64,000 bases of DNA from an uncultured Candidatus Peribacteria bacterium (GCA_964346765.1 CAYFWB010000004.1:55512-119511), one strand, 5' to 3'. Positions 21,901 through 64,000 are shown, counted from the first letter of the stretch. The notes: generated by a model from the sequence alone, not told the origin. Program-made: numbers and translations.

Positions 21901-22025
21901 GAGTTTTGGTTTAAATTTGTTTAATATTAGCATAATACATGCGGTTCGCCATTTTTAATTGGTTAATATAGTCAGCTTGCTTTTTTTGTGTTCTTGTATA
22001 TAATTATGCCTTATAATTTTTTTGT

Positions 22026-31367: not shown

Positions 31368-31443
31368 TTTATCTGATAGTTATTTTTAAGTATTATTTAG
31401 TGCTCTTTTCCTTTTCGGTGATCGCTTTTTTTATTCGGTTTTT

Positions 31444-32028
31444 TTACTCCTTTTGGTGCTTTTTGGATTCAGCTTTTTTTTCGTTATTGTGAGCGCCGCC
31501 TTTTTCTTGTTTTTTAGCCTCGCCGGCTTTTTTCGCATTTTCCGCTTCTTTCTTTTTGGTAGCCCATGGCATTTCTTTTAGCTGATCAAGAGCAACGATT
31601 GTTGCTTGGCTATTTGTCATACGGTTGTTGTTGCCGAGACATTTTGCCAATACATCTTTGATGCCTGCCAGTTCAAAAATTTTTCTTAAAGGGCCGCCGG
31701 CAATGATTCCGGTACCGGGACACGCAGGCATTAAAAGCAACCTTGCACTCTTATATTTTACTTTAACCTTGTGGGTGATGGTTTTTTCAACCATTGGTAT
31801 TGTGATCATAGTTTTTTTGGCCTGAGCAATGGCTTTTTGGATGGCTCCGGTAACTTCCGTGGATTTACCGATACCGACTCCCACTTTGCCTTTTTTATTG
31901 CCAATGGCTACAGTCGCGCGGAATCTAAGTCTTCTACCACCTTTTACCACACGGGTTACACGGTCGATTTGAATGACTTCTTCTTCGAATTCTTTTGGTT
32001 CTCTGATTGGTGCTCTACCTTTTTTCAT
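31444..32028 (-). CDS. rpsE: 30S ribosomal protein S5 (Lys-rich C-terminal tail)
   Basis: It has IDRVTRVVKGGRRLRFRA.V..GN..G.VG.G.GK..EV. Confidence 0.95.
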   Translation of the reverse strand: MKKGRAPIREPKEFEEEVIQIDRVTRVVKGGRRLRFRATVAIGNKKGKVGVGIGKSTEVTGAIQKAIAQAKKTMITIPMVEKTITHKVKVKYKSARLLLMPACPGTGIIAGGPLRKIFELAGIKDVLAKCLGNNNRMTNSQATIVALDQLKEMPWATKKKEAENAKKAGEAKKQEKGGAHNNEKKAESKKHQKE

Positions 32029-49239: not shown

Positions 49240-49241
49240 AG

Positions 49242-50732
49242 TTAGTCATCTTTAATAAAAGAAATCATCTCTTGAGTAGATTGTTTTAATTCATCATCTG
49301 AATATTTATCATTTTGCGTATTTTCGGGATGATGGATTGAGTGCCTTATATAGGTTTGCAAAGCCACATCAAATTTCAAATCTTCTTTTTCCTGTTCTGT
49401 TTTATTTCCTTTTAGCTTTCTATCATCAAACCATTTTTTATTATCGTTAGTTTTCTTATTATCTAAAAATTGACCAAATTCATCCTTTTTATTCGCTTCT
49501 AAATAACCATAAAGCTCATTATGAAATTCCACTGTCGGCAAATCGTAAGCGTGCCAGTTTATTTCTCCCCAAGTCGGGCTAAATCTGCCAAAAATACCCC
49601 AGCCGTCATCTCTTGCGTCTATAATCTCTATTTCATCATTGTTTTTCTTAAAAATTGAGAGCTTTGCACCTTCCCCGATTGCTCCTTTGAACATATAGGG
49701 AGAATGAGTAGAAATAAAAATTTGTTTGTCTTTTGCTTCTTCTAAAAGCAATTCCAATAATTTTTCTTGTGCTTTTGGGTGTAAATGTAATTCCGGTTCA
49801 TCTATCAGATAGATGATTTTTCCGTCAGACGCTCCGGCAATATTTTTTAACAATAGTATGGTTAGAATAATTTCAATGCCGGATCCTAAATCTTTTACCA
49901 AAATCTGCTTAAGTTCATTGTCTTTTCTGATAGTAAAAAAGGCATTTTCAAAAGGTTGCAACAAAGGCAGTAAATCAATTTTTAGATTTTCATAATCATC
50001 ATTTTCAAAGAAGTTTTTTAAGTCTTCCGCTGTTTTTGTGCCTGCACTACTTCCAACTATTTCTTGAATATTTTTAAAAAATTCTCCGTTTATATTGTTG
50101 ACAAGATTTTGTTGGTTTTCTTCGTTTAAATTTTTTCTAAACTTCCAACTTAAATCATCAAGTATTTTTTCAAATGTGGTTTTATAGTTTCCCGTTGTTA
50201 TTTGTCTATTTCTGTTTTTATCAAAATAAAAAATATTCAAACCGTCATCTTTAATGCGGGAGTTAGAAAAAGGTTTGTCTCTTGAATCAACATCTTTTTT
50301 AGGATTATCATTTTTGTCAAGATATTTGTTATCAATTTTAAACCACGAATGGTCTTGAAAGGGGGCAGACAATAATTTATTTTTCTCTTTTGTGTCTCTG
50401 CTTTTTGCAAAAAATTCTATTCCAGACGATTTAAAGTGCCAACTACTATAATAATCAATAGAAGATGAACATTCATATTTATCAGTATCAGCAATAACTT
50501 CAATAGCTTGCTTAAAATCTTGAAAATCACTTATATTCAGTTTGTTTTGTACCGAAAAACTATTTAGCGTTAAATAATTGATAGCTTCCAGTAGGGTTGT
50601 TTTTCCATTTCCGTTTTCGCCTATCAAAATATTTAGTCCACTGCCTTTTTCACCGTTAGGAGTAGCTAAATTTTCAAAGGTTTTATCCTGAAAGCATTTA
50701 AAATTTTTGATCTGTAATTTATTGATAAACAT
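49242..50732 (-). CDS. ABC/SMC-like AAA ATPase with C-terminal Rx4H (HEPN-like) motif, embedded in the type I R-M locus
   Basis: It has Walker A GENGNGKTT, Walker B/D-loop IYLIDEPELHLHP and H-loop STHSP. The C-terminal region ends with IRHSIHHPEN (R463-H468, nt 49329-49346). Confidence 0.7.
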   Translation of the reverse strand: MFINKLQIKNFKCFQDKTFENLATPNGEKGSGLNILIGENGNGKTTLLEAINYLTLNSFSVQNKLNISDFQDFKQAIEVIADTDKYECSSSIDYYSSWHFKSSGIEFFAKSRDTKEKNKLLSAPFQDHSWFKIDNKYLDKNDNPKKDVDSRDKPFSNSRIKDDGLNIFYFDKNRNRQITTGNYKTTFEKILDDLSWKFRKNLNEENQQNLVNNINGEFFKNIQEIVGSSAGTKTAEDLKNFFENDDYENLKIDLLPLLQPFENAFFTIRKDNELKQILVKDLGSGIEIILTILLLKNIAGASDGKIIYLIDEPELHLHPKAQEKLLELLLEEAKDKQIFISTHSPYMFKGAIGEGAKLSIFKKNNDEIEIIDARDDGWGIFGRFSPTWGEINWHAYDLPTVEFHNELYGYLEANKKDEFGQFLDNKKTNDNKKWFDDRKLKGNKTEQEKEDLKFDVALQTYIRHSIHHPENTQNDKYSDDELKQSTQEMISFIKDD

Positions 50733-50812
50733 AATTTATTTCCAAAAAGATAAATCCTCACCTTTTGCCCAATCGATAAATTTTTCCGCCACACCGTCGG
50801 GCAATTCTTTGC
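50733..50812 (-). pseudogene. duplicated remnant of the hsdM 3' end
   Basis: By eye it aligns at roughly 85-90 percent identity with 52084-52163. It still encodes ELPDGVAEKFIDWAKGEDLSFWK-stop, versus ELPEGVAEKFIDWAKSENLSFWK-stop in the intact hsdM. The remnant stop lies 3 nt before the ATPase ATG. Confidence 0.85.
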
Positions 50813-50917
50813 CTGCCTGTGCGTCCTTGCACGCAGACAGACCGTGGCTTTCTTTAATTATTACATTTTTACTTTCATGATACTATTATTTTTCATGGTC
50901 TAACACATTAGACTATG

Positions 50918-50976
50918 ATTATTTTAATTATCATATTCTGTGTTTTATGATAATTATATTATTTTAATTATCATAT
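50918..50976. repeat. AT-rich repeat cluster downstream of fic
   Basis: ATTATTTTAATTATCATAT occurs at 50918-50936 and 50958-50976. The core TAATTATCAT is present at 50925-50934 and 50965-50974, and inverted at 50947-50956. Confidence 0.85.
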
Positions 50977-50990
50977 GTGATATTTACACA

Positions 50991-52076
50991 TTAAGCGACT
51001 ATTTTTAACAATTTATTGAAAAAATAGGTTTTATGCCTTTCCTTGCCGTCTGAAAAAACCACATTGTTTTTTTCCAAAATTCTAATATAACGCATCGCAC
51101 TAGCCTGCGGTATTTTGGAAATCCTTATAAAATCACCACTCTTAAAAATCGGCATCTCAAAAAGCGCGTCAAGAATTCTGATGCTAAATTGCGATTTGGT
51201 AAGTTCGGTTATTCTTTGCTTTTTCTGTTCGTAAAGTTCCATAATTTTTTTGGCTTTGGCGATATTCTCCTCTGATTGCTCTATAACCGCTTGCAGAAAA
51301 AAAGTTATCCAGCCGTCCCAATTATCATTTTTTGAAATATCCAGTAGTGCTTGATAGTATTCGTCCCTGTGCGATTCAAGATATTCGCTCAAATAAAATG
51401 ACGGATAGAAAATGGCTTTTTTGAAATACAAAAACAAGGGCATTATCATTCTGCCGACTCTGCCGTTGCCGTCCATAAACGGATGAATCATTTCAAATTG
51501 CGCGTGAATAATGGCTAGCTGCACAAGCAGATCCCTTTCTTCTGAGTGGATATACTTTTCCAGATTGGACATTAAATCAGCAATTTTTTCAGCAGAAGGC
51601 GGAACATAGGTTGCCTGTTCAATGTTTGCGCCGGAATTTCCGATAAATACCTGCTGTCGCCTAAAATTTCCCCTGTCTTTATTTTCGCCCCGCACTCCTT
51701 GAAGCAAAATCTCGTGCGCTTTTTTTATAACTCTTGTTGAAAGCGATAATTTCTCCATTTCATCAATGGTAGCCTTTAACGCTTTTCTATAATTTATGAC
51801 TTCTTGAATGTCTTCATATTTTTTCGTTTCTTTTTGGGGATTGGCTTCAAATTCCAAAACTTCTTTCAGCGTCGCTTGCGTTCCCTCAATACGGGAAGAC
51901 AAAACCGCTTCATTAGTAATCAACGGACTTAAAAGCACGGAAGGGTTGGGAATGTTTTGAAGTAGCGCGTCAAATCTGCCAATTTCTACATTGGCCTTGC
52001 CTATCAAATGAACAAAAGACTCCCATTTTATATTTTGAACCGGTAAATTTTTAGGTGTGTGGCTGCTGTTTGTCAT
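50991..52076 (-). CDS. Fic-family protein (AMPylase-type) with N-terminal inhibitory motif
   Basis: It has the Fic motif HPFMDGNGRVGR (HxFx[DE]GNGRxxR), an N-terminal SSRIEG matching the [ST]xxxE[GN] inhibitory helix, and a C-terminal wHTH-like tail. Confidence 0.9.
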   Translation of the reverse strand: MTNSSHTPKNLPVQNIKWESFVHLIGKANVEIGRFDALLQNIPNPSVLLSPLITNEAVLSSRIEGTQATLKEVLEFEANPQKETKKYEDIQEVINYRKALKATIDEMEKLSLSTRVIKKAHEILLQGVRGENKDRGNFRRQQVFIGNSGANIEQATYVPPSAEKIADLMSNLEKYIHSEERDLLVQLAIIHAQFEMIHPFMDGNGRVGRMIMPLFLYFKKAIFYPSFYLSEYLESHRDEYYQALLDISKNDNWDGWITFFLQAVIEQSEENIAKAKKIMELYEQKKQRITELTKSQFSIRILDALFEMPIFKSGDFIRISKIPQASAMRYIRILEKNNVVFSDGKERHKTYFFNKLLKIVA

Positions 52077-52086
52077 ATTATTAAAT

Positions 52087-54129
52087 TTATTTCCAAAAAG
52101 ATAAATTCTCAGATTTTGCCCAGTCTATAAACTTTTCCGCCACGCCTTCGGGCAATTCTCCGCCGTGGTTGTGTAAATCATGATCAATGATTAAATGACC
52201 GTTTTTATCCAGCTTGCTTAAGCCGTTCCCATTTTTTACAAACACATACTCCCCAGAATTATCCTTGCCGGATTGTTCCGATACCGCAAAGAAAATCGGA
52301 TAATCTTCCTTTTTCGGGCAAAGTTCATCATCCCACTTTTGCACAAAAAGCACACTGGTTTTGGTGCCAGTATGTGGTTTAAAAGTATTGACATGCAATC
52401 CGACCACCGCCAAAATTCTGGCTTTCTCAGCGATATACTCACGGATTCTTTTGTCCGAGGTGTTATTAAACCTGCCTTGCGGTAACACAATCGCCATTCT
52501 TCCGCCGGGCTTTAAAAAGTTTAGATTTCTTTCAATAAACAAAATATCTCTGCCGACTTTTGATTTTGGCTTGTTTTTGTCGTTGTAGCCAAGATCATAC
52601 TTGTGAATAATGCGAGATTCTTTGATATCGCCGGCAAAAGGCGGATTCGCCATGAGAATATCAAAGTTAAATTCTTTGTAAGAATTGGGGTCGTCTTGCA
52701 ATCTTTCCAAACGATTCAAGCCTGCTCCGTAGGTATCCAGCCAATTGCGGTTTTTTATCGTTTCATTCCAGCGGTCATAATCTAAATTATTCAAATGCAA
52801 AACATTAGTGTTGCCGTCCCCGGCGATGAGGTTGAGCGTTCGAGCGACACGAACGACTTTTTCATCAAAATCAATTCCGAATATTTTTAAGACATTGTCT
52901 TTTTCGTGTTCTGGTACTTCCGCATTTTCAAATAGATGCCCGGTAATATGAAAAATAGTGTGTACCGGAAAACCGCACGAACCAGCCGCCGGATCTATCA
53001 TATATTCTCCGGGTTTTGGATTGAGCATTTTAACGCACATATCAATCACATGGCGAGGCGTGAAGTATTGCCCTTTTTCACCTTTTGAGGATTTATTGAC
53101 CAGATACTCAAACGCCTCATCAATAATTTGTAAATTGGAGTTAAACAGTTTTATATCCTGAAAACCCGAAACACTGACGGATAAATGCGAAGGAGAAAGT
53201 TGGATTTTTGAGGATTCATCAAAAACACCCGACCATTTTGTTTTGGCCTTATCAAAAAGTTTTTGGATTTTGGTTTTGAGTTCCGATTCGGATTGCCCCG
53301 TATTTCTAAACTCCAAAACGCGAAAATCGGAATCATCAAAAGTTTCCAAATATTCTTTTATTTTGACATAATCTCCGCGATCTTCTTCGGAAAGCTCTTT
53401 GTGTAAAAATCTTTCAATAAACTTTTTATCATCGCGACTTTCCAATTCGTCATACAGTTTGGTAAAAATCAGTTTAAACACTTCTTCAAACACATCCACT
53501 CCAGCATTTGCCAAAACTTCATCTTCCATTTCCTGAATAATGGTTTTGAGCGACTTTCCCTCGTTTGGAATCTTGTCTTTGATAATTAAGTCTTTGAGGG
53601 TAAATCTTTCTTTTAAAATATCTTCAAGTGTTTGGTCAGCTTTGGGAATATCGGTGATGTCTTCAAAATAATTTGGGTCTTTGCGGTGATATTGGGAAAT
53701 TTGTCCGCCATTAGTCCAAACGGCGATTGGTGCTCCTGTTGCGTTGGTGTATGAACGGAGTTGATTTTTTCCGTCTTGAAGCTTTGGCTTTTTGATTTCG
53801 ATGATGATGTATTCAACTGTCGGGCGGTCTTTATCAAAAATAACGATATCGGCGGATTTTACTTCACGTCCAAAATGAATGGCATGTTCAAATGTAATTC
53901 TTTGCTTTTGGTAGCCGTATTCTTTGAGTAATTTCATTGTATAGAGCTGACGGACAACTTCTTCAGGTTTTAGAAGAATCTCTTTATCACGAATAGCACA
54001 AACAATATAAAATTTGCCGTTCTTTTCGATTATTTTGTTTTCCAATTCCGAAACCAACTTTTCATCAAACAATGCAAAGCTGTAATTGGAATCTTTGAAT
54101 ATTTGCTGTAATGTATTCATTTTTTCCAT
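52087..54129 (-). CDS. hsdM: type I R-M N6-adenine DNA methyltransferase with HsdR_N-like N-terminal domain
   Basis: It has SAM motif I IDPAAGSCGF and catalytic motif IV NPPF (ILMANPPFAGD). The N-terminal 130 aa resemble the type I R-subunit N-terminal (PD-(D/E)xK-like) module (ADIVIF...IIIEIKKP). Confidence 0.85.
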   Translation of the reverse strand: MEKMNTLQQIFKDSNYSFALFDEKLVSELENKIIEKNGKFYIVCAIRDKEILLKPEEVVRQLYTMKLLKEYGYQKQRITFEHAIHFGREVKSADIVIFDKDRPTVEYIIIEIKKPKLQDGKNQLRSYTNATGAPIAVWTNGGQISQYHRKDPNYFEDITDIPKADQTLEDILKERFTLKDLIIKDKIPNEGKSLKTIIQEMEDEVLANAGVDVFEEVFKLIFTKLYDELESRDDKKFIERFLHKELSEEDRGDYVKIKEYLETFDDSDFRVLEFRNTGQSESELKTKIQKLFDKAKTKWSGVFDESSKIQLSPSHLSVSVSGFQDIKLFNSNLQIIDEAFEYLVNKSSKGEKGQYFTPRHVIDMCVKMLNPKPGEYMIDPAAGSCGFPVHTIFHITGHLFENAEVPEHEKDNVLKIFGIDFDEKVVRVARTLNLIAGDGNTNVLHLNNLDYDRWNETIKNRNWLDTYGAGLNRLERLQDDPNSYKEFNFDILMANPPFAGDIKESRIIHKYDLGYNDKNKPKSKVGRDILFIERNLNFLKPGGRMAIVLPQGRFNNTSDKRIREYIAEKARILAVVGLHVNTFKPHTGTKTSVLFVQKWDDELCPKKEDYPIFFAVSEQSGKDNSGEYVFVKNGNGLSKLDKNGHLIIDHDLHNHGGELPEGVAEKFIDWAKSENLSFWK

Positions 54130-54332
54130 AGTGTTTTAATAAGTCCTGAATTAGTTTTATTGTATCCGTTTTCCCCTAAAATTAAAATTATTTTCGGAGC
54201 GATAGCGGAGAAAACACTATATTTCCCCTTTTTCCCTCATATAATAAAGAAAAAATTTGTTTTGATTCCTTATTCTTAAAGCGAAGCGGGAAACCTCCTA
54301 AAAAGATAAAAAATGTATGTCACACAACGTTC

Positions 54333-54398
54333 CTGGCTATGCGATGTTGCGACCGTAGGGAGCAATATGGGTGGAGCGAAGCGGAATCGCATAGCCAG
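54333..54398. repeat. 13-bp perfect stem hairpin with 40-nt loop, just 3' of the HNH gene
   Basis: CTGGCTATGCGAT (54333-54345) pairs with ATCGCATAGCCAG (54386-54398). The loop is relatively GC-rich. Confidence 0.85.
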
Positions 54399-54399
54399 T

Positions 54400-54418
54400 G
54401 TTGTACGATGAGCTGGCC
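54400..54418. repeat. inverted repeat, arm 1, flanking the HNH gene
   Basis: The reverse complement of GTTGTACGATGAGCTGGCC matches 55916-55934 at 17 of 19 positions. Confidence 0.8.
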
Positions 54419-54471
54419 AATCCCGTTTTGTATTGCTGAATTTTGAGTGAAGCATTAAGAAATTATACAAA

Positions 54472-55887
54472 TCAATTTCCTTCTTTAATAGAATGTGGAA
54501 GATTAGTTTTGCCTCGGTTACATTCTTTGCAGAGTGTTTGCAAATTATCTTCTGCAGTTTCTCCACCAGTTGAATAAGGAATTATGTGATCAATCTCAAG
54601 CACGACCTCATCTTTCATAGGACTTTTGCCACATATTTTGCAAGTAAAATTATCACGTCTAAACACACGAAATCGAAGTGTTGGCGTAATGGTTCTGCCG
54701 GTTGAATGTTTAATAATAATCGAAGAATTATTATTACTTAGTTCGTTACTTTTTGTGATAGGAGCTTTGGTGGCAGGTGTTGCTTGTAGTAATGAAGATT
54801 GAATCATTTCTGTTATTTCTGGTTCTGTATCGGAGGAGGTGTCATTGTTTCTATCTTCACAAAAGGCATGTATTGCCTTTGTCCAACTGCCGAACAGTTT
54901 TGCATAAACTTTTGGCGATATTTTCCCCAGTTTCCACATCTGAACCTGCGTTGGTTGCTTTCCAAACTGTTCCCACAATCGTTGAATTTCATTGAATAAA
55001 TCATTTTTTGAGTATCTTGATTGTTCACCAGAAACCCCACCTACTGCATTAACTGCCTTAGTCCAACTGCCAAAATGTTTTACAAAAACACCCTTACTAA
55101 AAGTTCCACCATTTGACTTGTATGGATCATATTTAATAATATCTCCAGGGAATTTTCGTTGAAATTCTCGCAACTCGTTAAGTAATTCACCTTTCGTTAG
55201 AAGAGGCCCTGAACAAGAAGAATGCCACTCAACACTTAGACCTTTCTTTTGGCAAAAAATTTCTATCGCTTTTGTCCATGTGCCAAATCGCGATATGTAA
55301 ATTGTTATTCCATACTTTGATGCTTGCGAAAACTCATCATAGGTTGGTCGACCGTGCTTTGCTTGCCATACTCGATCAATTTCATTAAATAAATCTTCTT
55401 TTGTTAGGTTCGCAAGTAAATTACGTCTTTGTGAATGTGGACTTACAACTGTATGAATAATTCTTTGCTTTTTCATCGCATTTATTTTTTGCATTACATC
55501 TTTCCAGTTTTGCACATTAAATCCTTTTAGAATAGTTGCGGGACTATAAAGTCCACCATTTTTTTTATAAAAGTCTTGCGTAAAGGAATAACCATTTGAT
55601 CGTTCGAGTACAGCTTTAAGATTCCCTGTAATCTGATTTAAAGGGATTCTGGGCAGTGCTGTTTGTCTATGAGAATTAAAACCAGCTTGCTGTATTGCTT
55701 TTTTATAGGTGCCAAAATATTTTGCTATAGTCGGGTGTTTGACGCGTGAAAATTTTTCAAAGTTATTTCGATTTGGTGTAACTCCGTTGAATACATCATT
55801 TACAACACGTTGGATTTCTTTAATTATTTCTGATTTTGAGTAATTATGTAATCTGCTGGGATTAAATTGTTTCGGATTATTTTGCAT
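54472..55887 (-). CDS. HNH endonuclease with five N-terminal homing-endonuclease-associated repeats
   Basis: The C-terminus has CKICG...EIDHIIPYS.GG....NLQTLCKECN (the HNH motif). Upstream are five modules ending in FG(S/T)W(T/K)KA-type motifs. Confidence 0.85.
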   Translation of the reverse strand: MQNNPKQFNPSRLHNYSKSEIIKEIQRVVNDVFNGVTPNRNNFEKFSRVKHPTIAKYFGTYKKAIQQAGFNSHRQTALPRIPLNQITGNLKAVLERSNGYSFTQDFYKKNGGLYSPATILKGFNVQNWKDVMQKINAMKKQRIIHTVVSPHSQRRNLLANLTKEDLFNEIDRVWQAKHGRPTYDEFSQASKYGITIYISRFGTWTKAIEIFCQKKGLSVEWHSSCSGPLLTKGELLNELREFQRKFPGDIIKYDPYKSNGGTFSKGVFVKHFGSWTKAVNAVGGVSGEQSRYSKNDLFNEIQRLWEQFGKQPTQVQMWKLGKISPKVYAKLFGSWTKAIHAFCEDRNNDTSSDTEPEITEMIQSSLLQATPATKAPITKSNELSNNNSSIIIKHSTGRTITPTLRFRVFRRDNFTCKICGKSPMKDEVVLEIDHIIPYSTGGETAEDNLQTLCKECNRGKTNLPHSIKEGN

Positions 55888-55915
55888 ATTTTTGGTATTA
55901 TATATGAGTGTTTTC

Positions 55916-55934
55916 GGCCAGCTTTTCGTACAAC
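55916..55934. repeat. inverted repeat, arm 2, flanking the HNH gene
   Basis: GGCCAGCTTTTCGTACAAC lies 29 nt upstream of the HNH ATG and is the partner of 54400-54418. Confidence 0.8.
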
Positions 55935-56113
55935 TATTTATTATACGAACAAAAGAACAATATTCTATTATTGCTCTTTGTCAATTTGTAGTTAATCCTC
56001 CTAGACCTTCGGCTCAATCATAGCCTTAATCGTCATCACATCAACAATTGTTGATCTCTCCGTCTCCGCCAACTTCATTGTTATGAACTTAACGTTGTTC
56101 TTAAGGTAGGGGA

Positions 56114-57337
56114 TCATCCACCTTTTCCCGCTACCTCTGCAAACTTCTCTGTCATTGTGGGATTTCCGCGTGTTAATTTTTTTATGGTTAAATCTTCCGC
56201 TTTATTGTTGGCCAGACGGTAATTGTTTTCTGATGATAATAGCGCGTCTTTGGTTTTTTGAAGGTGGGTTATGGTTTTGTCTATTTCGTCGATGGCGGTT
56301 TTGAATTTACGGCTGGCCAGATCATAGTTTTTTGCAAAGCCTTCTTTGAATGTGTTTAAGTTCTCTTCGAAGTTGGTGATATCAACATTTTGGTTTTTTA
56401 CCAAAGCCAGCTCCGCTTTGTATTTTAGAGAGTTTATGGCTGCATTGCGGAGTACTGTTATCATTGGAATAAAAAATTGCGGTCGGACTACATACATTTT
56501 GGGATATTTGTGGGAGACATCTACAATTCCTGTGTTGTATAGTTCATTTTCGGTTTCCAATAGCGAAACTAGGACGGCATATTCGCATTTCTTTTCTGTG
56601 CGGTCTTTATCCAGTTCTCGTAAAAAGTCTTCGTTCTTGTGTTTGGTGGCTGTTTTATCGCCTTCGTTTTTCATTTCAAACATTATTGAAATTATTTGGT
56701 TGCCGGCTTCGTCGGTTTCGCGATAGATATAATCGCCCTTACTGCCGGTTTTGGAATCATTATCTTTTTCAAAGTACGCATTTTGGAAAGCGGTGGCTCT
56801 TAGTTTGTTGAATTCAATTTCACAATGCTGTTCCAAAGTTTCTCCGACCATTTTGGTGCTAAGTTTTAACTTCATGTCTTTGTATCGTTCAATTATTTCG
56901 TCTTTTGATTTCAGCTCATTTTCATACTTGTCCTTTAAGGAAACTTCACGAAGCTGCATTTCATTTTCTTTGCTTTGCAGTTTGGCTGTCAGGTTGTCCC
57001 GTTCTTTTTCAATAACAGTGACCGCCTGTGTGACGGCGAGTTTTTTCTTCAGCTCGTCACCATCTATTTTTGCTTTAATAACAGCTATTTCCGATTCCTT
57101 TTTTGCCAAAAGTTCTGTCCATTCCTTATTTTTTTTTGTAATTTCCATCTGTACTGCATTTTTCATATTGGCTGCAGCCAGTTTGACAGCGCTTTCTTTT
57201 TCTTTTTCCGCAATCGTCAATCGCTCATGCAGTTCTTTTTCAAACTGATGATCGCGCACTTGTTTGAGTATGTCTGCAAATCCCGCTTCATCTACTTTAA
57301 ATATTTTTCCGCAATGCGGACACTTAATGTCATTCAT
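56114..57337 (-). CDS. DUF2130-like protein: zinc ribbon, coiled coil and putative PD-(D/E)xK nuclease domain
   Basis: It has an N-terminal CPHCGK, a long heptad-rich central region, then GDYIYR...IMFEMKN (a D...ExK pattern). Confidence 0.65.
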
Positions 57338-57550: not shown

Positions 57551-59665
57551 TTATTGATGTTCTGCGATGAACTCTTTAATAGAGTTCATGACATTTTTGG
57601 TTTTTGCCTGCGCCTCTCTGGTACTTTTGTATATACCCAATGCCATGGTCGCACGGAAAATATAGGTTCTACTTTTTATTTTTTTCCCCGATGCGCAGAC
57701 GAAATCAGTATCTTTTAACGCGTTAAATGTTAGGTCGTCAATACTTGTACCTAGCTGATCGGCTATAACGGCTAAATCGGTAGCTAAATTTTTTTTAAAA
57801 TATTTACTATCCATAGCTGGAGGCAGTTGAATTCCTATTCGTGTTTTTAACATGTCCAGTGCTTTTTTTTGTTTACTGCCGGCCTTTTTTTTGTCTTTAA
57901 CCAAGCCAAGAGCAATTGTTGCCCGGCAAAGATAAGCTTGCCCTCTAACAGATTCTTGATTGGCGCAAACAGCTGTTTTTGTAGACATGTTTTGTGTATT
58001 TAAATCTTCGATCTTTTCAACTCCCACTTCTGTCGCGAATGCTTGCAGGTCAAATTTTATCGCATCTGCATTTTTAAAATATTCTTGGTCCATTTCATCA
58101 TATTTTTTAATTTCCATGCCCGCGACTTCTTTTAGTTTTTTAAGAGTCGGACCCCGAATATGGCCGGCTTTGATTGATTCTTCGGCTAATCCATATGCGA
58201 TAGCGGCTTTGCTTAAATAAACATTTCCATTGATTGTTTGACCGTTGGAATAAGTAAACGTTCTGCATATAAGTTCTGTTGTCGTGGTTAATTCTTCGAT
58301 TGAAATGCCATTAGCTTCGGCCATTATTGTTAAATCGTTTTTTACTTTATCTTTATCGTTGAAGTACTCTTTATCCATTTGTTTAAAAATTGTTTTTATT
58401 CCAAGTTTTTCTTTTAATTTTTTTAGTGCCAGACTTTGGTGAGAAGCGGCCGCGGTCATTGTGGTTGCCAGCTTAAAATGTACGCCCGCTCTTAATAAAT
58501 ACTTCTGCCCTTTTATTTGTTCGTTATTTGCACATTTTACCTCGATGCCTGCAATTTTTGATATTGAAATTTCCTCGATTTCTTGATCGACCGCTTCGGC
58601 ATAAGCTTGAAGATCATGTTTGATATTACTTATGTTTGAAAAATATTCATCATCCATGGGTGGTACCACTTCCAGACCGGCAAGCTCTTTTAATTGGTTC
58701 AACGTGGCAAGATAGTTTAATGTTCCGGGGAGACATTTTGCCGCTTGTTTTAAATATTTCAGTTGATTGATGGTTTCACCGTTTGAACATTGTGCATAGT
58801 TTTCCCGCATACGTTTCGTGTTTAGTTTATTCGGGTCAATACCGGCGGCAGAGGCGAAAGCATATAAATCTTTTTTTACAAATTCGGGGTTTGAAAAATA
58901 TCTGCCATCCATTTTTACGTAGCTATTGATAGTATCAAGGGCTTCTTTTAAGTCCGCAACAAATTGTTCCGGATTATGGAAAACAAAATGTTTAACGCGG
59001 GGTTTGCTCTTTAGAGTTTTTTTCCCGTAACGTCTAAGTTCTCGTCTATATGCATCAGAATGATAGAGGACAACAAAGGTTCTATTATGATGTTGATTAT
59101 TTGTAAAAATTACAATTCCCAGTTTTTTTAGGTTGAATTCCCAGTAGGGTCTTGTCCTGAATGAATGCGTAGGTGTTGATGATACGGAAATAGCTATGTC
59201 ATCAAGCATAATTTTTTCTCCGTTAAAATCGTGATTTAAAATGGTCTGTAATGTTAGCGCAACACGGTTATAGTCGACTCTGTTTTCTTCTTTTTCTTCA
59301 TGTACTGTGTCGTTTGAAGGGTCTTTTTGGTCAGGAGGAATGTAAATAGCCTTTGTTTGACGAATTTTTACTCTAAAATCTCTAATTAGATTTGTTACCA
59401 GATCTGTTTCGGTGGGCAAATGTTCGGCATTTAGTTTTTTGTCCCAGTGTCCCAGAGCGGAATCAAGAATGTCAAAAGGATCCCTTATTCCGGCTTTTTC
59501 AAAAAGCTCTGAATTGTCAATTCCCAGTGATTCACGAATCTGTATAATGATGTTTTCAAGATCGATCAGAAGGTTAAAAGTACCTTCTTTGTAAATGTTA
59601 TCTTCCAGGACAGCTTGTTCGACGCTTTTTGCCTTTTTGTGTAAAGCTTCAAATTGCTCCTTCAT
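57551..59665 (-). CDS. hypothetical protein with five tandem repeats of about 90 aa
   Basis: Repeats begin at aa 252, 337, 430, 525 and 618, each starting MD..YF and containing C.NG..I.G..YL..A...GL...L..LKE..G. The N-terminal 250 aa are unrelated. Confidence 0.7.
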   Translation of the reverse strand: MKEQFEALHKKAKSVEQAVLEDNIYKEGTFNLLIDLENIIIQIRESLGIDNSELFEKAGIRDPFDILDSALGHWDKKLNAEHLPTETDLVTNLIRDFRVKIRQTKAIYIPPDQKDPSNDTVHEEKEENRVDYNRVALTLQTILNHDFNGEKIMLDDIAISVSSTPTHSFRTRPYWEFNLKKLGIVIFTNNQHHNRTFVVLYHSDAYRRELRRYGKKTLKSKPRVKHFVFHNPEQFVADLKEALDTINSYVKMDGRYFSNPEFVKKDLYAFASAAGIDPNKLNTKRMRENYAQCSNGETINQLKYLKQAAKCLPGTLNYLATLNQLKELAGLEVVPPMDDEYFSNISNIKHDLQAYAEAVDQEIEEISISKIAGIEVKCANNEQIKGQKYLLRAGVHFKLATTMTAAASHQSLALKKLKEKLGIKTIFKQMDKEYFNDKDKVKNDLTIMAEANGISIEELTTTTELICRTFTYSNGQTINGNVYLSKAAIAYGLAEESIKAGHIRGPTLKKLKEVAGMEIKKYDEMDQEYFKNADAIKFDLQAFATEVGVEKIEDLNTQNMSTKTAVCANQESVRGQAYLCRATIALGLVKDKKKAGSKQKKALDMLKTRIGIQLPPAMDSKYFKKNLATDLAVIADQLGTSIDDLTFNALKDTDFVCASGKKIKSRTYIFRATMALGIYKSTREAQAKTKNVMNSIKEFIAEHQ

Positions 59666-59671: not shown

Positions 59672-60091
59672 TTAGAAATGGACAAAAATCAGAACTAATT
59701 TGTGCCATATTTCTTGTTTTATGTCAAGCATGCGAATGGTGCGCTGGCGGACGAGTGGGCGGTAGGGGTGAGGTTTTACCAAGTGCCAGGTCGCGGAGGA
59801 AACCGGAGATGGATGTGTATATCCTTTTTTAAGCGCTATTTTTTTGATTCGTTTTTTGTCTTTTGATGTTACGCGAAAGCGGATTTCTTCGCTTTGTTGT
59901 TCGTTGTATTTTTTTTCTGCAAGGATTAAGTTGGGCAGGTCGTTTAAAAGACCCGGGCTGTTTTCATTTAGAAATTCCTGGTCTATTTTTGCCGCTTCGC
60001 ATTTTACTTTAGTTGCTTTTTTCCCGTAGTTGTGAAGTGTGTAAAAATATTTTTTATTGTTGAGTGTAATGTAGTGTTTAAGTGGAGTCAT
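59672..60091 (-). CDS. hypothetical protein with RHH/MobC-like segment, apparently frameshifted
   Basis: It reads EIRFRVTSKDKKRIKKIALKKGYT in frame. The -1 frame continues SISGFLRDLALGK, a typical RHH second helix, while the in-frame tail is low-quality sequence. An A6 run and an ACACA lie at the junction (plus-strand 59813-59830). Confidence 0.55.
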   Translation of the reverse strand: MTPLKHYITLNNKKYFYTLHNYGKKATKVKCEAAKIDQEFLNENSPGLLNDLPNLILAEKKYNEQQSEEIRFRVTSKDKKRIKKIALKKGYTHPSPVSSATWHLVKPHPYRPLVRQRTIRMLDIKQEIWHKLVLIFVHF

Positions 60092-60360: not shown

Positions 60361-60530
60361 CCTTCAGAGGGAATTTGTTTTGCGCGGTGGGGTTGATTGT
60401 GTGTCGCGCGCGGTTACATCATTTGGTTTTAGCATCAGTGCCCTTAAGGGCAGGTTGCTGGCGGGTCATTGATCCAAATCTTTCGCAGTCTTCCGATGAA
60501 AGTGGAGGCTAAGGTAGCAAGGGGGGGATT
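60361..60530. other. GC-enriched, self-complementary non-coding island upstream of cas12a
   Basis: It is locally much more GC-rich than its flanks. Complementary pairs are 60382-60386 with 60405-60409, 60421-60426 with 60474-60479, and 60439-60443 with 60448-60452. All six frames are closed. Confidence 0.4.
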
Positions 60531-60596: not shown

Positions 60597-63500
60597 ATGA
60601 AAAAATCTATTTTTGATCAGTTTGTAAATCAGTATGCTCTTTCTAAAACGTTGCGGTTTGAATTGAAGCCGGTGGGGGAGACGGGGAGGATGCTTGAGGA
60701 GGCGAAGGTTTTTGCTAAAGATGAAACAATCAAGAAAAAATATGAGGCAACCAAGCCTTTTTTTAATAAATTGCATCGTGAATTTGTAGAGGAGGCTTTA
60801 AATGAGGTGGAATTAGCTGGTTTGCCTGAATATTTTGAAATATTTAAATATTGGAAAAGGTATAAAAAGAAGTTTGAAAAGGATTTGCAGAAGAAAGAAA
60901 AAGAATTGCGGAAATCAGTTGTAGGTTTTTTTAATGCACAGGCAAAGGAATGGGCGAAAAAATATGAAACTTTGGGTGTGAAGAAAAAAGATGTGGGACT
61001 TTTATTTGAAGAAAATGTTTTTGCTATATTGAAGGAAAGGTACGGAAATGAGGAGGGATCACAAATTGTTGATGAAAGTACAGGAAAAGATGTTTCGATA
61101 TTTGATAGTTGGAAGGGCTTTACAGGGTATTTTATTAAATTCCAGGAAACTCGTAAGAATTTTTATAAGGATGATGGCACGGCTACTGCTTTGGCTACAA
61201 GGATTATTGATCAAAATTTGAAGCGTTTTTGTGATAATTTACTAATATTTGAAAGTATTAGAGATAAAATTGATTTTTCAGAGGTAGAACAAACTATGGG
61301 AAACTCTATTGATAAGGTTTTTTCAGTAATTTTTTATAGTTCCTGTTTACTTCAGGAAGGAATTGATTTTTATAATTGTGTTTTAGGTGGGGAGACTCTG
61401 CCAAATGGTGAAAAGAGACAGGGAATAAATGAGCTTATTAATCTCTATAGGCAAAAAACTAGTGAGAAAGTACCTTTTTTAAAGTTGCTTGATAAGCAGA
61501 TTTTGAGTGAAAAAGAGAAGTTTATGGATGAAATTGAAAATGATGAGGCTCTCTTGGATACTCTTAAAATATTTAGAAAATCGGCTGAAGAAAAAACCAC
61601 TTTGTTAAAAAATATTTTTGGTGATTTTGTTATGAATCAGGGTAAGTATGATTTAGCGCAGATTTATATTTCCAGAGAATCTTTAAATACTATTTCACGG
61701 AAATGGACCAGTGAAACAGATATATTTGAGGATTCATTATATGAAGTGTTAAAGAAATCAAAAATAGTTTCTGCCTCTGTAAAAAAGAAAGATGGAGGGT
61801 ACGCTTTCCCTGAGTTTATTGCGCTTATTTATGTGAAAAGTGCTCTTGAACAAATTCCTACTGAAAAATTTTGGAAGGAGCGATATTATAAAAATATTGG
61901 AGATGTTTTGAATAAAGGGTTTTTGAATGGTAAGGAAGGTGTCTGGTTACAATTTTTATTGATTTTTGATTTTGAATTTAATTCTCTTTTTGAAAGAGAA
62001 ATAATTGATGAAAATGGAGACAAGAAAGTGGCCGGATATAATTTGTTTGCCAAGGGTTTTGATGATCTTTTGAATAACTTTAAATATGATCAAAAAGCTA
62101 AGGTTGTTATTAAGGATTTTGCAGATGAGGTTTTACATATTTATCAGATGGGAAAATATTTTGCTATTGAAAAGAAACGTTCTTGGTTGGCTGATTATGA
62201 TATTGATTCATTTTATACTGATCCTGAAAAAGGTTATTTGAAGTTTTATGAAAATGCGTATGAAGAGATTATTCAAGTTTATAATAAATTGCGAAATTAC
62301 CTAACGAAGAAACCTTATAGTGAGGATAAATGGAAACTTAATTTTGAGAATCCAACTTTAGCTGATGGGTGGGACAAAAATAAAGAAGCTGATAATTCTA
62401 CAGTTATTTTGAAAAAGGATGGTCGCTATTATTTAGGGTTGATGGCTCGCGGGCGAAATAAACTTTTTGATGATAGAAATTTACCAAAAATTTTGGAGGG
62501 CGTTGAGAATGGGAAATATGAGAAAGTTGTATATAAGTATTTTCCGGATCAGGCAAAAATGTTTCCAAAAGTTTGTTTTTCAACTAAAGGTTTGGAGTTT
62601 TTCCAACCTTCGGAGGAAGTCATTACTATTTACAAAAATTCTGAATTCAAAAAAGGGTATACTTTTAATGTAAGGAGTATGCAGAGGCTTATTGATTTTT
62701 ATAAAGATTGTCTTGTTAGATATGAGGGGTGGCAATGTTATGATTTTAGAAATTTGAGAAAGACAGAAGATTATCGGAAGAATATTGAAGAGTTTTTCAG
62801 CGATGTTGCTATGGATGGGTATAAAATATCCTTTCAGGATGTCTCGGAAAGTTATATTAAAGAGAAAAATCAGAATGGGGATTTATATTTATTTGAGATA
62901 AAAAATAAAGATTGGAATGAAGGCGCAAATGGAAAGAAAAATTTGCACACTATATATTTTGAATCTCTTTTTTCGGCTGATAATATTGCCATGAATTTTC
63001 CCGTTAAGTTGAATGGACAAGCGGAAATTTTTTATCGGCCAAGAACAGAGGGGCTGGAGAAAGAAAGGATAATCACTAAAAAGGGTAATGTTTTGGAAAA
63101 AGGAGATAAAGCTTTTCATAAAAGAAGGTATACGGAAAACAAAGTTTTTTTTCATGTTCCGATTACACTTAATCGAACAAAAAAAAATCCATTTCAATTT
63201 AATGCAAAAATTAATGATTTTTTGGCTAAAAATTCTGATATAAATGTTATTGGGGTCGATCGTGGGGAGAAGCAATTAGCATATTTTTCTGTTATTTCAC
63301 AGAGAGGCAAAATTTTGGATAGGGGTAGTTTAAATGTGATAAATGGAGTTAATTATGCAGAGAAATTAGAAGAAAAAGCTAGAGGGCGTGAGCAGGCGCG
63401 TAAGGATTGGCAGCAGATTGAAGGTATTAAAGATTTAAAGAAGGGATATATTTCTCAGGTAGTTAGAAAGCTAGCCGATTTAGCAATTCAGTATAATGCG

Positions 63501-64000
63501 ATTATTGTTTTTGAAGATTTGAACATGCGGTTTAAGCAGATTCGTGGAGGTATTGAAAAAAGTGTTTATCAGCAGTTGGAGAAGGCTTTGATTGATAAAT
63601 TAACTTTTTTGGTTGAAAAGGAAGAAAAAGATGTAGAAAAGGCAGGTCATTTGTTAAAAGCTTACCAGCTTGCTGCTCCGTTTGAGACTTTTCAGAAAAT
63701 GGGTAAACAAACGGGGATTGTTTTTTATACACAGGCTGCATATACTTCACGAATTGATCCTGTTACAGGTTGGCGGCCTCACTTGTATTTGAAATATTCC
63801 AGTGCGGAGAAGGCAAAGGCGGATTTATTAAAATTTAAAAAGATAAAGTTTGTGGATGGCCGGTTTGAGTTTACTTATGATATTAAGAGTTTTCGTGAAC
63901 AAAAGGAACATCCAAAGGCGACTGTCTGGACGGTGTGTTCTTGCGTGGAGAGATTTCGTTGGAATAGATATTTAAATAGCAATAAAGGTGGTTATGACCA
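60597..64000 (+). CDS. cas12a: CRISPR-associated type V-A effector Cas12a (Cpf1), N-terminal 1134 aa; ORF continues past the window end
   Basis: Hand translation from the ATG at 60597 finds no stop up to position 64000. It contains MKKSIFDQFVNQYALSKTLRFELKPVGET, NVIGVDRGEKQLAYFSV (RuvC-I), KDLKKGYISQVVRKLADLAIQY (bridge helix), IIVFEDLNMRFKQIRGGIEKSVYQQLEKALIDKL (RuvC-II) and GIVFYTQAAYTSRIDPVTGW. There is no HNH insert. Confidence 0.93.
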   Translation, partial: MKKSIFDQFVNQYALSKTLRFELKPVGETGRMLEEAKVFAKDETIKKKYEATKPFFNKLHREFVEEALNEVELAGLPEYFEIFKYWKRYKKKFEKDLQKKEKELRKSVVGFFNAQAKEWAKKYETLGVKKKDVGLLFEENVFAILKERYGNEEGSQIVDESTGKDVSIFDSWKGFTGYFIKFQETRKNFYKDDGTATALATRIIDQNLKRFCDNLLIFESIRDKIDFSEVEQTMGNSIDKVFSVIFYSSCLLQEGIDFYNCVLGGETLPNGEKRQGINELINLYRQKTSEKVPFLKLLDKQILSEKEKFMDEIENDEALLDTLKIFRKSAEEKTTLLKNIFGDFVMNQGKYDLAQIYISRESLNTISRKWTSETDIFEDSLYEVLKKSKIVSASVKKKDGGYAFPEFIALIYVKSALEQIPTEKFWKERYYKNIGDVLNKGFLNGKEGVWLQFLLIFDFEFNSLFEREIIDENGDKKVAGYNLFAKGFDDLLNNFKYDQKAKVVIKDFADEVLHIYQMGKYFAIEKKRSWLADYDIDSFYTDPEKGYLKFYENAYEEIIQVYNKLRNYLTKKPYSEDKWKLNFENPTLADGWDKNKEADNSTVILKKDGRYYLGLMARGRNKLFDDRNLPKILEGVENGKYEKVVYKYFPDQAKMFPKVCFSTKGLEFFQPSEEVITIYKNSEFKKGYTFNVRSMQRLIDFYKDCLVRYEGWQCYDFRNLRKTEDYRKNIEEFFSDVAMDGYKISFQDVSESYIKEKNQNGDLYLFEIKNKDWNEGANGKKNLHTIYFESLFSADNIAMNFPVKLNGQAEIFYRPRTEGLEKERIITKKGNVLEKGDKAFHKRRYTENKVFFHVPITLNRTKKNPFQFNAKINDFLAKNSDINVIGVDRGEKQLAYFSVISQRGKILDRGSLNVINGVNYAEKLEEKARGREQARKDWQQIEGIKDLKKGYISQVVRKLADLAIQYNAIIVFEDLNMRFKQIRGGIEKSVYQQLEKALIDKLTFLVEKEEKDVEKAGHLLKAYQLAAPFETFQKMGKQTGIVFYTQAAYTSRIDPVTGWRPHLYLKYSSAEKAKADLLKFKKIKFVDGRFEFTYDIKSFREQKEHPKATVWTVCSCVERFRWNRYLNSNKGGYD

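What the first reader, a model, noticed from the sequence alone, without database searches (positions are those of the whole stretch)
60597..64000. Unlisted, open-ended giant ORF is a Cas12a/Cpf1-type single-effector CRISPR nuclease
The supplied ORF track shows only short antisense ORFs for 60.5-64 kb. The + strand frame starting at ATG 60597 is nevertheless open for 1134 codons to the window edge. I spot-checked the frame at 60600, 61260, 62460, 63240, 63500 and 63900. Its N-terminus (FDQFVNQYALSKTLRFELKPVGET) is the hallmark start of Cas12a. VIGVDRGEK (Asp codon 888, nt 63258-63260) and IIVFEDLN (Glu codon 973, nt 63513-63515) are the RuvC-I and RuvC-II catalytic contexts, separated by an Arg/Lys-rich bridge-helix-like segment. 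There is no HNH domain. RuvC-III, the Nuc domain and any cas4-cas1-cas2 genes or CRISPR array must lie beyond 64000, and none are upstream. Cas12a is a known family, but this copy in a CPR-like genome with this neighbourhood (repeat protein, RHH gene, R-M island) is probably uncharacterised.
Basis: partly seen in the sequence, partly recalled or inferred. Interest (0 to 1): 0.95.

Follow-up and report, generated by a model that had tools for sequence, protein, structure and literature searches.

The report
Cas12a CRISPR nuclease gene, CPR bacterium
The open reading frame running off the window's end is a real, intact Cas12a (Cpf1) CRISPR nuclease gene from an uncultured CPR bacterium, with its partner genes and CRISPR array just past the window; it is an untested but ordinary new member of a very well-known family.

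Summary
Frame +1 from ATG 60597 is open for 1134 codons to the window edge.

The interpretation also holds. The protein scores 835 bits on NCBI's Cas12a equivalog model (cutoff 300), or 908 bits full length. It has the five Cas12a Pfam domains in order. It matches solved Cas12a structures at E = 1e-200 to 1e-140.

I recovered the source contig, which is identical over the 13,404 shared bases. The protein is 1281 aa and carries the RuvC-III Asp (D1231) and the Nuc Arg (R1189). It is followed by type V cas4, cas1 and cas2. A nine-repeat array follows, with repeats ending GAUUUCUACUUUUGUAGAU.

The host is a Peregrinibacteria/Gracilibacteria-type CPR bacterium. Type V-A is already reported as the usual CRISPR type in that group. 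The nearest public relative is 70% identical.

One deviation was found. The pre-crRNA-processing loop is short and lacks the "conserved" catalytic His. About a third of the sampled Cas12a cluster representatives share this, so it is a branch-wide trait.

Verdict: new member of a known kind. Interest is low (about 0.2), not 0.95.

The parts
60597..64000 (+). cas12a (cpf1), codons 1-1134 of 1281; the gene continues 441 coding nt plus the stop codon past the window edge
   Evidence: Open frame. TIGR04330 at 834.8 bits. Identical full-length protein P0001 on JGI contig Ga0153774_1000019.
60565..60592 (+). Sigma-70-like promoter match (TTGTAA-16-TATACT) just upstream of the start codon. This is a consensus match only.
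   Evidence: Three such sites were found in the region, against 1.5 expected by chance, so this is weak evidence.
60753..61502 (+). REC1 domain (residues 53-302)
   Evidence: Pfam PF18501, E = 3.4e-45.
61539..62306 (+). REC2 domain (residues 315-570)
   Evidence: Pfam PF21918, E = 1.2e-12.
62367..62384 (+). GWDKNK motif (G591-K596). K596 aligns to the PAM-contacting Lys FnCas12a K613.
   Evidence: Identical motif aligned to Fn (PDB chain numbering is native + 2). The GWxxxK PAM motif is described in PMC7757703.
62544..62822 (+). PAM-interacting (PI) domain (residues 650-742). It includes MFPK, where K658 (nt 62568-62570) aligns to Fn K671.
   Evidence: Pfam PF22222, E = 2.1e-21. Alignment. Motif position.
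63006..63161 (+). WED-III pre-crRNA-processing loop (residues 804-855), the short His-less form. T827 sits in the Fn H843 column, a gap in the K852 column, H841 in the K869 column, and Y845 in the F873 column.
   Evidence: phmmer alignments. MAFFT alignments of 110 and 141 sequences.
63195..63752 (+). RuvC domain segments I-II with the bridge helix (residues 867-1052)
   Evidence: Pfam PF18516, E = 1.8e-71.
63258..63260 (+). RuvC-I catalytic Asp D888 (GAT)
   Evidence: Aligns to FnCas12a D917 in SIDRGER.
63360..63449 (+). Bridge-helix equivalent (about residues 922-951, EKLEEKARGREQARKDWQQIEGIKDLKKGY)
   Evidence: Aligns without gaps to the Fn segment ...[29 protein letters not shown].
63513..63515 (+). 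RuvC-II catalytic Glu E973 (GAA)
   Evidence: Aligns to FnCas12a E1006. The E1006Q mutant chain 6i1l shows Q at this column.
63753..63986 (+). First half of the Nuc domain (residues 1053-1130). The rest, with R1189 and the RuvC-III D1231, lies beyond the window.
   Evidence: Pfam PF18510, profile positions 1-79 of 162. Full-length alignment.

Best explanation
This is the effector gene of a complete type V-A CRISPR-Cas locus in a CPR (Patescibacteria) bacterium of the Peregrinibacteria/Gracilibacteria lineage. The locus reads cas12a-cas4-cas1-cas2-leader-array. Only the first 1134 of 1281 cas12a codons fall inside the window.

Shown here:
- the gene is intact;
- it has the full Cas12a domain set (REC1, REC2, WED, PI, RuvC with bridge helix, Nuc);
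- the RuvC triad is D888/E973/D1231 and the Nuc Arg is R1189;
- both PAM-contacting lysines (K596, K658) are present;
- type V-specific Cas4, Cas1 and Cas2 follow;
- nine identical 36-nt repeats separate eight unique 26-32-nt spacers, and each repeat ends in the Cas12a 5'-handle hairpin (GAUUUCUAC-UUUU-GUAGAU).

Inferred from established Cas12a biology:
- Cas4-Cas1-Cas2 insert new spacers at the cas2-proximal leader;
- the array is transcribed in the direction of the cas genes;
- Cas12a binds the repeat hairpin without a tracrRNA and trims the pre-crRNA just upstream of it;
- the crRNA-Cas12a complex recognises a 5' T-rich PAM and forms an R-loop;
- the single RuvC site cuts both DNA strands in a staggered, PAM-distal manner.

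The crRNA-trimming step is the least certain. This protein and its whole branch lack the His of the canonical His/Lys/Lys processing site.
For: Open frame of 1134 codons.

Family assignment:
- TIGR04330 cas_Cpf1 equivalog: 834.8 bits for the window fragment and 908 bits for the full-length protein, cutoff 300.
- Pfam REC1, REC2, PI, RuvC_1 and NUC in the canonical order.
- 26 distinct PDB Cas12a sequences matched over nearly the full length, at E = 1e-200 to 1e-140.

Residue-level alignment to FnCas12a:
- D888 = D917, E973 = E1006, D1231 = D1255, R1189 = R1218, with a continuous bridge helix.
- K596 = K613 and K658 = K671.

Locus:
- The source contig is identical to the window over 13,404 nt.
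- cas4, cas1 and cas2 follow cas12a. They pass the type V-specific cutoffs: TIGR04328 213 bits against 70, TIGR04329 316 against 300, TIGR01573 52 against 24.5.
- The array has 9 identical repeats and spacers of 26-32 nt.
- The repeat folds into the 5-bp stem with a 4-nt loop at its 3' end.
- The UUUU loop is the scaffold reported for PbCas12a, PeCas12a and LiCas12a (PMC7093978).

Context:
- The closest relative (70% identity, Ca. Peregrinibacteria CP065009.1) has the same gene order and at least 43 repeats with the same terminal 19 nt.
- Host placement: SecY is 73-81% identical to named Gracilibacteria, Peregrinibacteria and Patescibacteria SecY. There is no uL30 gene between S5 and L15. TGA is used as a stop codon.
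Against: No activity has been measured.

None of the eight spacers matches anything found. There was no self-target at 6 or fewer mismatches. There was no exact 22-nt hit in the viral contig collection. The array gave no BLAST hit against GenBank phages. So neither the targets nor the PAM could be confirmed.

The catalytic His of the pre-crRNA-processing site (Fn H843, Lb H759, called 'conserved' in PMC6711708) has no counterpart. The loop is 9 residues shorter than in Fn. The Fn K852 column is a gap and the K869 column holds His. Self-processing is therefore assumed, not supported by sequence.

The cas locus has much lower G+C (31-36%) than the flanking core genes (42-48%). It is probably a horizontally acquired island, and its expression in this host is unknown.
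Confidence: 0.95

Rival explanations
1. It is a Cas12a whose crRNA maturation differs from the textbook mechanism. The WED-III RNase site would be remodelled, with Lys/Arg-only or differently placed residues. Alternatively it would be inactive, with crRNAs trimmed by a host RNase. DNA interference would otherwise be normal.
For: No His occupies the Fn H843 column in the query or in any of about 108 close clade members. Across the sampled family, about 50 of 139 cluster representatives have this short loop, against 75 canonical and 13-14 'GHH' forms. The TIGR04330 alignment breaks at residue 833, inside this loop. The His is treated as conserved and catalytic in characterised enzymes (PMC6711708).
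Against: The repeat keeps the canonical handle and hairpin, including the nucleotides around the usual cut site. The loop is still rich in Lys/Arg (ITKKG, FHKRRY), and the conserved aromatic (Y845 = Fn F873) is retained. Multi-spacer arrays persist across the branch, with at least 43 repeats in L005, which implies working crRNA biogenesis. Loop alignments are intrinsically uncertain, and no coordinates were available for a structural check.
Confidence: 0.2
2. It is a decaying or repurposed copy: catalytically dead, DNA-binding only, or a pseudogene in the making. It would not be an active immune nuclease.
For: No protospacer was found for any of the eight spacers. The array is short at 9 repeats. 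The low-GC island suggests horizontal acquisition.
Against: There is no stop or frameshift in 1281 codons. All RuvC and Nuc catalytic residues and both PAM lysines are intact. The adaptation genes are intact and pass curated cutoffs. All nine repeats are identical, which is typical of a maintained array. Missing protospacers are normal for CPR phages, which are poorly sampled.
Confidence: 0.04
3. It is Cas12a2, the RNA-triggered abortive-infection sister family that shares Cas12a repeats, and not Cas12a.
For: Cas12a2 shares the repeat type and a related RuvC domain with Cas12a (bioRxiv 10.1101/2022.06.13.495973). Repeat and RuvC evidence alone would therefore not separate the two.
Against: Cas12a2 is defined by a large insert replacing the bridge helix and a zinc finger replacing Nuc. 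Here D888 to E973 spans 85 residues, against 89 in Fn, and aligns continuously with the Fn bridge helix. The Pfam NUC and PI domains are present. The C-terminal region has only four scattered Cys and no CxxC pairs. The protein passes the Cas12a equivalog model at three times its cutoff.
Confidence: 0.01

Closest known systems
FnCas12a (Francisella novicida Cpf1; PDB 5ng6, 5mga, 6i1k)
   Same: It aligns end to end, query residues 3-1120 to chain residues 3-1153, at E = 1e-174. It shares the domain order, the RuvC D/E/D triad, the Nuc Arg, the bridge helix with the RKDW motif, and the GWDKNK and (M/L)xPK PAM lysines. The repeat handle is of the same type, AUUUCUACU-loop-GUAGAU.
   Different: The WED-III processing loop is 9 residues shorter and has no His at the H843 column. 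The repeat loop here is UUUU, whereas PMC7093978 lists UGUU for FnCas12a. From my recollection of the Fn repeat, the first handle base also differs (G here, A in Fn).
ReChb (reconstructed ancestral Cas12a; PDB 8qwd)
   Same: It is the best solved-structure match, at E = 1.3e-200 over query residues 5-1128.
   Different: ReChb keeps the canonical processing His (...ETIVHKANEPIKNKN...), and the query does not.
Ca. Peregrinibacteria bacterium Cas12a (P0002; genome CP065009.1, GCA_016699755.1)
   Same: It is 70% identical over the full length and is annotated by NCBI as type V Cas12a/Cpf1. It has the same cas12a...cas4-cas1-cas2-array order and the same terminal 19 nt of the repeat. It has the same short His-less loop, variant A.
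   Different: It carries an extra unannotated 109-aa ORF between cas12a and cas4. Its array is much longer, with at least 43 repeats. The 5' half of the repeat differs.
CPR Cas12a orthologues known since 2015: Roizmanbacteria GW2011_GWA2_37_7 (L004), and PbCas12a/PeCas12a of Parcubacteria and Peregrinibacteria
   Same: The Roizmanbacteria copy is 63% identical. PbCas12a and PeCas12a use the same UUUU-loop crRNA scaffold (PMC7093978). Representative P0260 resembles my recollection of PbCpf1 and has the same short-loop type.
   Different: Identity is only about 42-63%. I could not retrieve the original 2015 Cpf1 paper to check how these orthologues behaved biochemically. That comparison rests on memory.

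Membership tests
Cas12a / Cpf1 (type V-A effector) | Passes the curated equivalog profile TIGR04330 cas_Cpf1 | tested here: met
   834.8 bits for the window fragment and 908 bits for the full-length protein, cutoff 300.
Cas12a / Cpf1 (type V-A effector) | Bilobed single-effector architecture: REC1-REC2-WED/PI-RuvC(+bridge helix)-Nuc, with no HNH domain | tested here: met
   Pfam REC1, cas_Cpf1_2nd, Cpf1_PI-like, RuvC_1 and NUC in order, with no HNH hit. Near-full-length alignment to solved Cas12a chains.
Cas12a / Cpf1 (type V-A effector) | RuvC catalytic triad Asp-Glu-Asp | tested here: met
   D888 = Fn D917 and E973 = Fn E1006 are in the window. D1231 = Fn D1255 is in the contig continuation.
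Cas12a / Cpf1 (type V-A effector) | Nuc-domain Arg needed for target-strand cleavage (Fn R1218 / As R1226) | tested here: met
   R1189 in CQIRNT aligns to Fn LQMRNS. It lies outside the window, on the source contig.
Cas12a / Cpf1 (type V-A effector) | PAM-contacting lysines (GWxxxK motif and the PI-domain Lys) | tested here: met
   G591-K596 is GWDKNK, and K658 sits in MFPK. They align to Fn K613 and K671. The motif is described in PMC7757703.
Cas12a / Cpf1 (type V-A effector) | Cognate CRISPR repeat ending in the TCTAC-N(1-8)-GTAGA hairpin, with no tracrRNA | tested here: met
   Nine repeats read ...AGATTTCTACTTTTGTAGAT, 178 nt after cas2. The 5-bp stem with a 4-nt loop is predicted. No anti-repeat copy exists in the window. 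The array lies outside the window.
Cas12a / Cpf1 (type V-A effector) | WED-III pre-crRNA RNase site His/Lys/Lys (Fn H843/K852/K869; Lb H759/K768/K785) | tested here: not met
   T827, a gap and H841 occupy these three columns, and the loop is 9 aa shorter than in Fn. About 50 of 139 family representatives share this. It is therefore a trait of a large branch within Cas12a, not grounds for exclusion, but self-processing is unproven here.
Cas12a / Cpf1 (type V-A effector) | Linked type V adaptation module cas4-cas1-cas2 | tested here: met
   TIGR04328 at 213 bits (cutoff 70), TIGR04329 at 316 bits (cutoff 300) and TIGR01573 at 52 bits (cutoff 24.5). Gene order.
Cas12a / Cpf1 (type V-A effector) | crRNA-guided, PAM-dependent staggered dsDNA cleavage | not testable with these tools
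   This needs biochemistry. No protospacer was found from which to infer a PAM.
Cas12a2 | Large domain of unknown function in place of the bridge helix | tested here: not met
   85 residues separate RuvC-I and RuvC-II, and they align continuously with the Fn bridge helix.
Cas12a2 | Zinc-finger domain (four conserved Cys) in place of Nuc | tested here: not met
   The Pfam NUC domain is present. The only Cys after residue 1000 are C1114, C1116, C1186 and C1259, with no CxxC pairs.

The most novel reading that the evidence does not exclude
The most novel reading the evidence allows concerns pre-crRNA processing. This enzyme, and the large CPR-centred branch of Cas12a it belongs to, would mature crRNA without the canonical catalytic His. 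That could mean a remodelled Lys/Arg-based WED-III site, or no self-processing at all, with reliance on a host RNase. If so, autonomous His-dependent array processing, usually described as a hallmark of Cas12a, would not be universal in the family.
Probability: 0.2. Interest if true: 0.45.

Novelty: new member of a known kind. Interest (0 to 1): 0.2.

Why it matters
The direct result is modest. It adds one more intact, compact (1281 aa) Cas12a orthologue with a standard crRNA scaffold. The source is an uncultured Peregrinibacteria-type CPR bacterium, a group already known to rely mostly on type V-A systems. It could be screened as a genome-editing or diagnostic nuclease, but nothing in the sequence predicts unusual properties.

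The more useful by-product is the processing-site result. The catalytic His described as conserved in characterised Cas12a enzymes is absent from about a third of the sampled family representatives, including this one. Biochemical testing of any member of that branch would show whether Cas12a self-processing chemistry is more plastic than assumed. That matters for multiplexed-array applications and for anti-CRISPRs such as AcrVA4 that dock on that site.

Tried and rejected
**Targets and PAM**
- All eight spacers (PAM-proximal 22 nt) were scanned against the viral contig collection. None matched.
- The newest spacer and the repeat were scanned against metagenome contigs. Neither matched, not even to the source array, so that collection evidently lacks this record.
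- The whole array was BLASTed against GenBank phages with no hit.
- A self-target search at 6 or fewer mismatches found nothing.

**RNA features**
- Rfam at gathering threshold found nothing in the whole window, and no tRNAs were found.
- A sub-threshold SAM-I riboswitch hit lies in the intergenic region upstream of cas12a, on the opposite strand (24.3 bits against a gathering score of 44.4). About ten of its pairs are non-canonical and it is not conserved in two related loci. I treat it as probable chance.
- Folding of the GC-rich intergenic patch is no better than shuffled sequence (z = +0.68 and -1.31).

**Neighbouring genes**
- I asked whether the 704-aa repeat protein and the 139-aa protein are Cas12a-associated. 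They have no Pfam or PADLOC hits and are absent from the other cas12a loci examined. They are unrelated neighbours.

**Alternative assignments**
- Cas12a2 was rejected.
- An alternative genetic code (code 25 of Gracilibacteria proper) was rejected because TGA terminates 9 of 38 long ORFs.

**Not done or not possible**
- I could not retrieve the 2015 Cpf1 paper.
- A 23-orthologue Cas12a study does not mention CPR enzymes.
- I did not run structure prediction. The sequence evidence is already decisive, and the tool returns no coordinates for inspecting the processing site.
- One repeat finder failed on a strand argument.
Full report
**1. Observation**

Translating window 60597-64000 on the + strand gives 1134 codons with no stop. 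The first in-frame stop upstream is TAA at 60561, so ATG 60597 is the first available start. With the local composition (35% A, 32% T, 23% G, 10% C) a random codon is a stop 9.1% of the time. An open run of this length has a probability of about 7e-48.

- the N-terminal motif starts at residue 6;
- D888 is GAT at 63258-63260;
- E973 is GAA at 63513-63515.

The ORF was missing from the ORF track because the lister omits ORFs that run off an end of the source.

**2. Identity**

The fragment scores 834.8 bits on TIGR04330 (cas_Cpf1, an NCBI 'equivalog' model, cutoff 300). It carries Pfam REC1, REC2 (cas_Cpf1_2nd), PI, RuvC_1 and the first half of NUC, in the canonical order, with no HNH domain. 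It aligns nearly end to end with 26 distinct solved Cas12a sequences. The best are the reconstructed ancestor ReChb (8qwd, E = 1.3e-200) and FnCas12a (5ng6, E = 1.1e-174).

**3. Extending past the window**

A 100%-identical full-length protein of 1281 aa (P0001) exists in the protein collection. It is encoded on a 131.8-kb JGI metagenome contig (3300012002, Ga0153774_1000019) and on an independent 12.2-kb Logan assembly (ERR2437277). The window is identical to the JGI contig over all 13,404 shared bases. The two assemblies are identical to each other over 12,175 bases.

Downstream of cas12a lie cas4, cas1 and cas2. They pass the type V-specific NCBIfam cutoffs: TIGR04328 at 213 bits against 70, TIGR04329 at 316 against 300, and TIGR01573 at 52 against 24.5.

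After a 178-nt AT-rich leader comes an array of nine identical 36-nt repeats, CTCGAATATCCCTATTAGATTTCTACTTTTGTAGAT. They separate eight unique spacers of 26-32 nt. The repeat's 3' end folds into the 5-bp stem with a 4-nt loop. The UUUU loop is the scaffold listed for PbCas12a, PeCas12a and LiCas12a (PMC7093978). No repeat copy occurs in the window itself.

**4. Functional residues**

Residue-level alignment to FnCas12a chains gives the following (PDB chain numbering is native + 2):
- D888 = D917 (RuvC-I).
- E973 = E1006 (RuvC-II). The E1006Q mutant chain 6i1l shows Q in that column.
- D1231 = D1255 (RuvC-III).
- R1189 = R1218 (Nuc).
- The 85 residues between RuvC-I and RuvC-II align without gaps to the Fn bridge helix, including the RKDW motif.

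The PAM-contacting lysines are kept: K596 in GWDKNK and K658 in MFPK. The GWxxxK motif is described in PMC7757703. A T-rich 5' PAM is therefore the expectation, but this is inference.

**5. Sister family excluded**

Cas12a2 shares the repeat type and a related RuvC domain with Cas12a. It is defined by a large insert replacing the bridge helix and a zinc finger replacing Nuc (bioRxiv 10.1101/2022.06.13.495973). Neither is present here.

**6. The one deviation**

In characterised Cas12a enzymes, pre-crRNA is cut by a His/Lys/Lys site in WED-III: Fn H843/K852/K869 and Lb H759/K768/K785. The His is called conserved in PMC6711708.

In this protein the segment between KLNGQAEIFYR and FFHVP (residues 804-855) is 9 residues shorter than in Fn. 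phmmer places Fn H843 opposite Gly or a gap, and the two Fn chains give two different placements. In a MAFFT alignment of 108 close homologues with Fn and ReChb, no clade member has His in that column.

To see how general this is, I searched 1.84 billion cluster representatives. There were 1,012 at E ≤ 1e-30. I aligned the loop for 139 of the top 150:
- 75 have the canonical His, then K/R, then K-D-x-R-Y/F arrangement, with loops of 58-137 aa.
- 13-14 have a 55-aa 'GHH' form.
- About 50, including the query and its CPR relatives, have a short 42-70-aa loop with no His at that position.

In the query, the Fn H843, K852, K869 and F873 columns hold T827, a gap, H841 and Y845.

This is a trait of a large branch and not a peculiarity of this gene. 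The sample is also biased towards relatives of the query. The loop stays rich in Lys/Arg, the repeat is canonical, and relatives maintain long arrays (at least 43 repeats in L005). crRNA biogenesis therefore evidently works. Whether Cas12a itself performs it in the usual way is open. I found no paper in the held library addressing this.

**7. Host and context**

The window carries a ribosomal protein operon, S8-L6-(L18)-S5-L15-SecY-Adk-Map, with EF-Tu and EF-G nearby. Only 76 nt separate S5 and L15, so uL30 is absent. That is a known CPR trait (PMC9297842, listed).

SecY is 73-81% identical to sequences named Ca. Gracilibacteria, Ca. Peregrinibacteria or Patescibacteria. TGA is used as a stop codon, which fits Peregrinibacteria-type rather than code-25 Gracilibacteria. 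Type V-A is already reported as almost the only CRISPR type of Gracilibacteria and Absconditabacteria (PMC10746230).

Upstream of cas12a lies a defence island:
- a type I-like methylase (PADLOC MTase_I, 951 bits), a specificity subunit, an AAA_15 ATPase and SoFic;
- an HNH nuclease with homing-endonuclease repeats;
- a DUF2130 protein;
- two proteins with no family hits, of 704 aa (internally repetitive) and 139 aa.

The last two are absent from other cas12a loci.

The cas locus has 31-36% G+C and a strong positive GC skew. The V/A-type ATPase operon that follows it has 42-48% G+C. This suggests horizontal acquisition.

**8. Targets**

No protospacer was found for any spacer. CPR phages are poorly sampled, so this says little either way. 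It does leave the PAM and the natural targets unconfirmed.

**9. Verdict**

The finding is real and correctly interpreted. It is a new, uncharacterised orthologue, at most 70% identical to any other public cluster. It belongs to one of the best-known protein families in biology, in a host group where it is expected, and it has a textbook locus.

Novelty is 'new member of a known kind' and interest is about 0.2. The only thread worth pulling is the His-less processing loop shared by a large, apparently unstudied branch of the family.

Noticed in passing
window 63006-63161 (residues 804-855 of Cas12a); also P0002-P0120 and P0241-P0387: The pre-crRNA-processing loop lacks the 'conserved' catalytic His and is shortened. 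About 50 of 139 Cas12a cluster representatives share this form, and another 13-14 have a distinct 'GHH' form.
   Followed up: yes
window 60413-60502 (- strand): A sub-threshold SAM-I riboswitch match (RF00162, 24.3 bits against a gathering score of 44.4, E about 0.002-0.005 for the small region searched, full model length). It lies about 320 nt upstream of the 139-aa minus-strand ORF. It has about ten non-canonical pairs and is not conserved in two related loci, so it is probably chance.
   Followed up: partly
window 57551-59665 (-) and 59672-60091 (-): A 704-aa protein built of roughly 75-aa internal repeats (recurring M-D-x-E-Y-F...D-L motif) and a 139-aa basic protein. Neither has a Pfam or PADLOC hit, and both are absent from the other cas12a loci examined.
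   Followed up: partly
window 47818-57337 (- strand): A defence island: type I specificity subunit, AAA_15/AAA_21 ATPase, SoFic (PADLOC, 389 bits), an HsdR-N plus N6-methylase fusion (PADLOC MTase_I, 951 bits), an HNH nuclease with four homing-endonuclease repeats, and a DUF2130 protein.
   Followed up: partly
window 31368-31446 (gap between L15 and S5 genes): There is no uL30 gene between S5 and L15 in the ribosomal operon. This is a CPR hallmark and supports the host assignment.
   Followed up: yes
L001 10001-16000 versus 17001-23000: The cas locus has 31-36% G+C with a strong positive GC skew, against 42-48% in the adjacent genes. It is probably a horizontally acquired island. It is followed by a complete V/A-type ATPase operon.
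   Followed up: partly
P0080 (Ca. Kaiserbacteria) and P0114 (Ca. Campbellbacteria), C-terminal third: These Cas12a homologues keep the bridge helix but carry two CxxC pairs (for example TSKTCPECGF...INCPCCGF) where the usual Nuc segment sits. They look like a zinc-ribbon variant of CPR Cas12a, different from Cas12a2.
   Followed up: no
L005 9848-10177 (CP065009.1, closest relative): An unannotated 109-aa ORF sits between cas12a and cas4 in the closest relative and is absent from this locus. PMC10746230 also notes unannotated ORFs inside CPR type V-A operons.
   Followed up: no
L003 (DYJS01000011.1): A CPR-type Cas12a, 63% identical to the query and with the same repeat ending, sits on a contig binned as 'Candidatus Methylomirabilis sp.'. 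This is either a mis-binned contig or a horizontal transfer.
   Followed up: no
window 46070-47134 (+): A protein combining three S-layer-homology domains with a staphylococcal-nuclease domain, probably a cell-surface-anchored nuclease.
   Followed up: no
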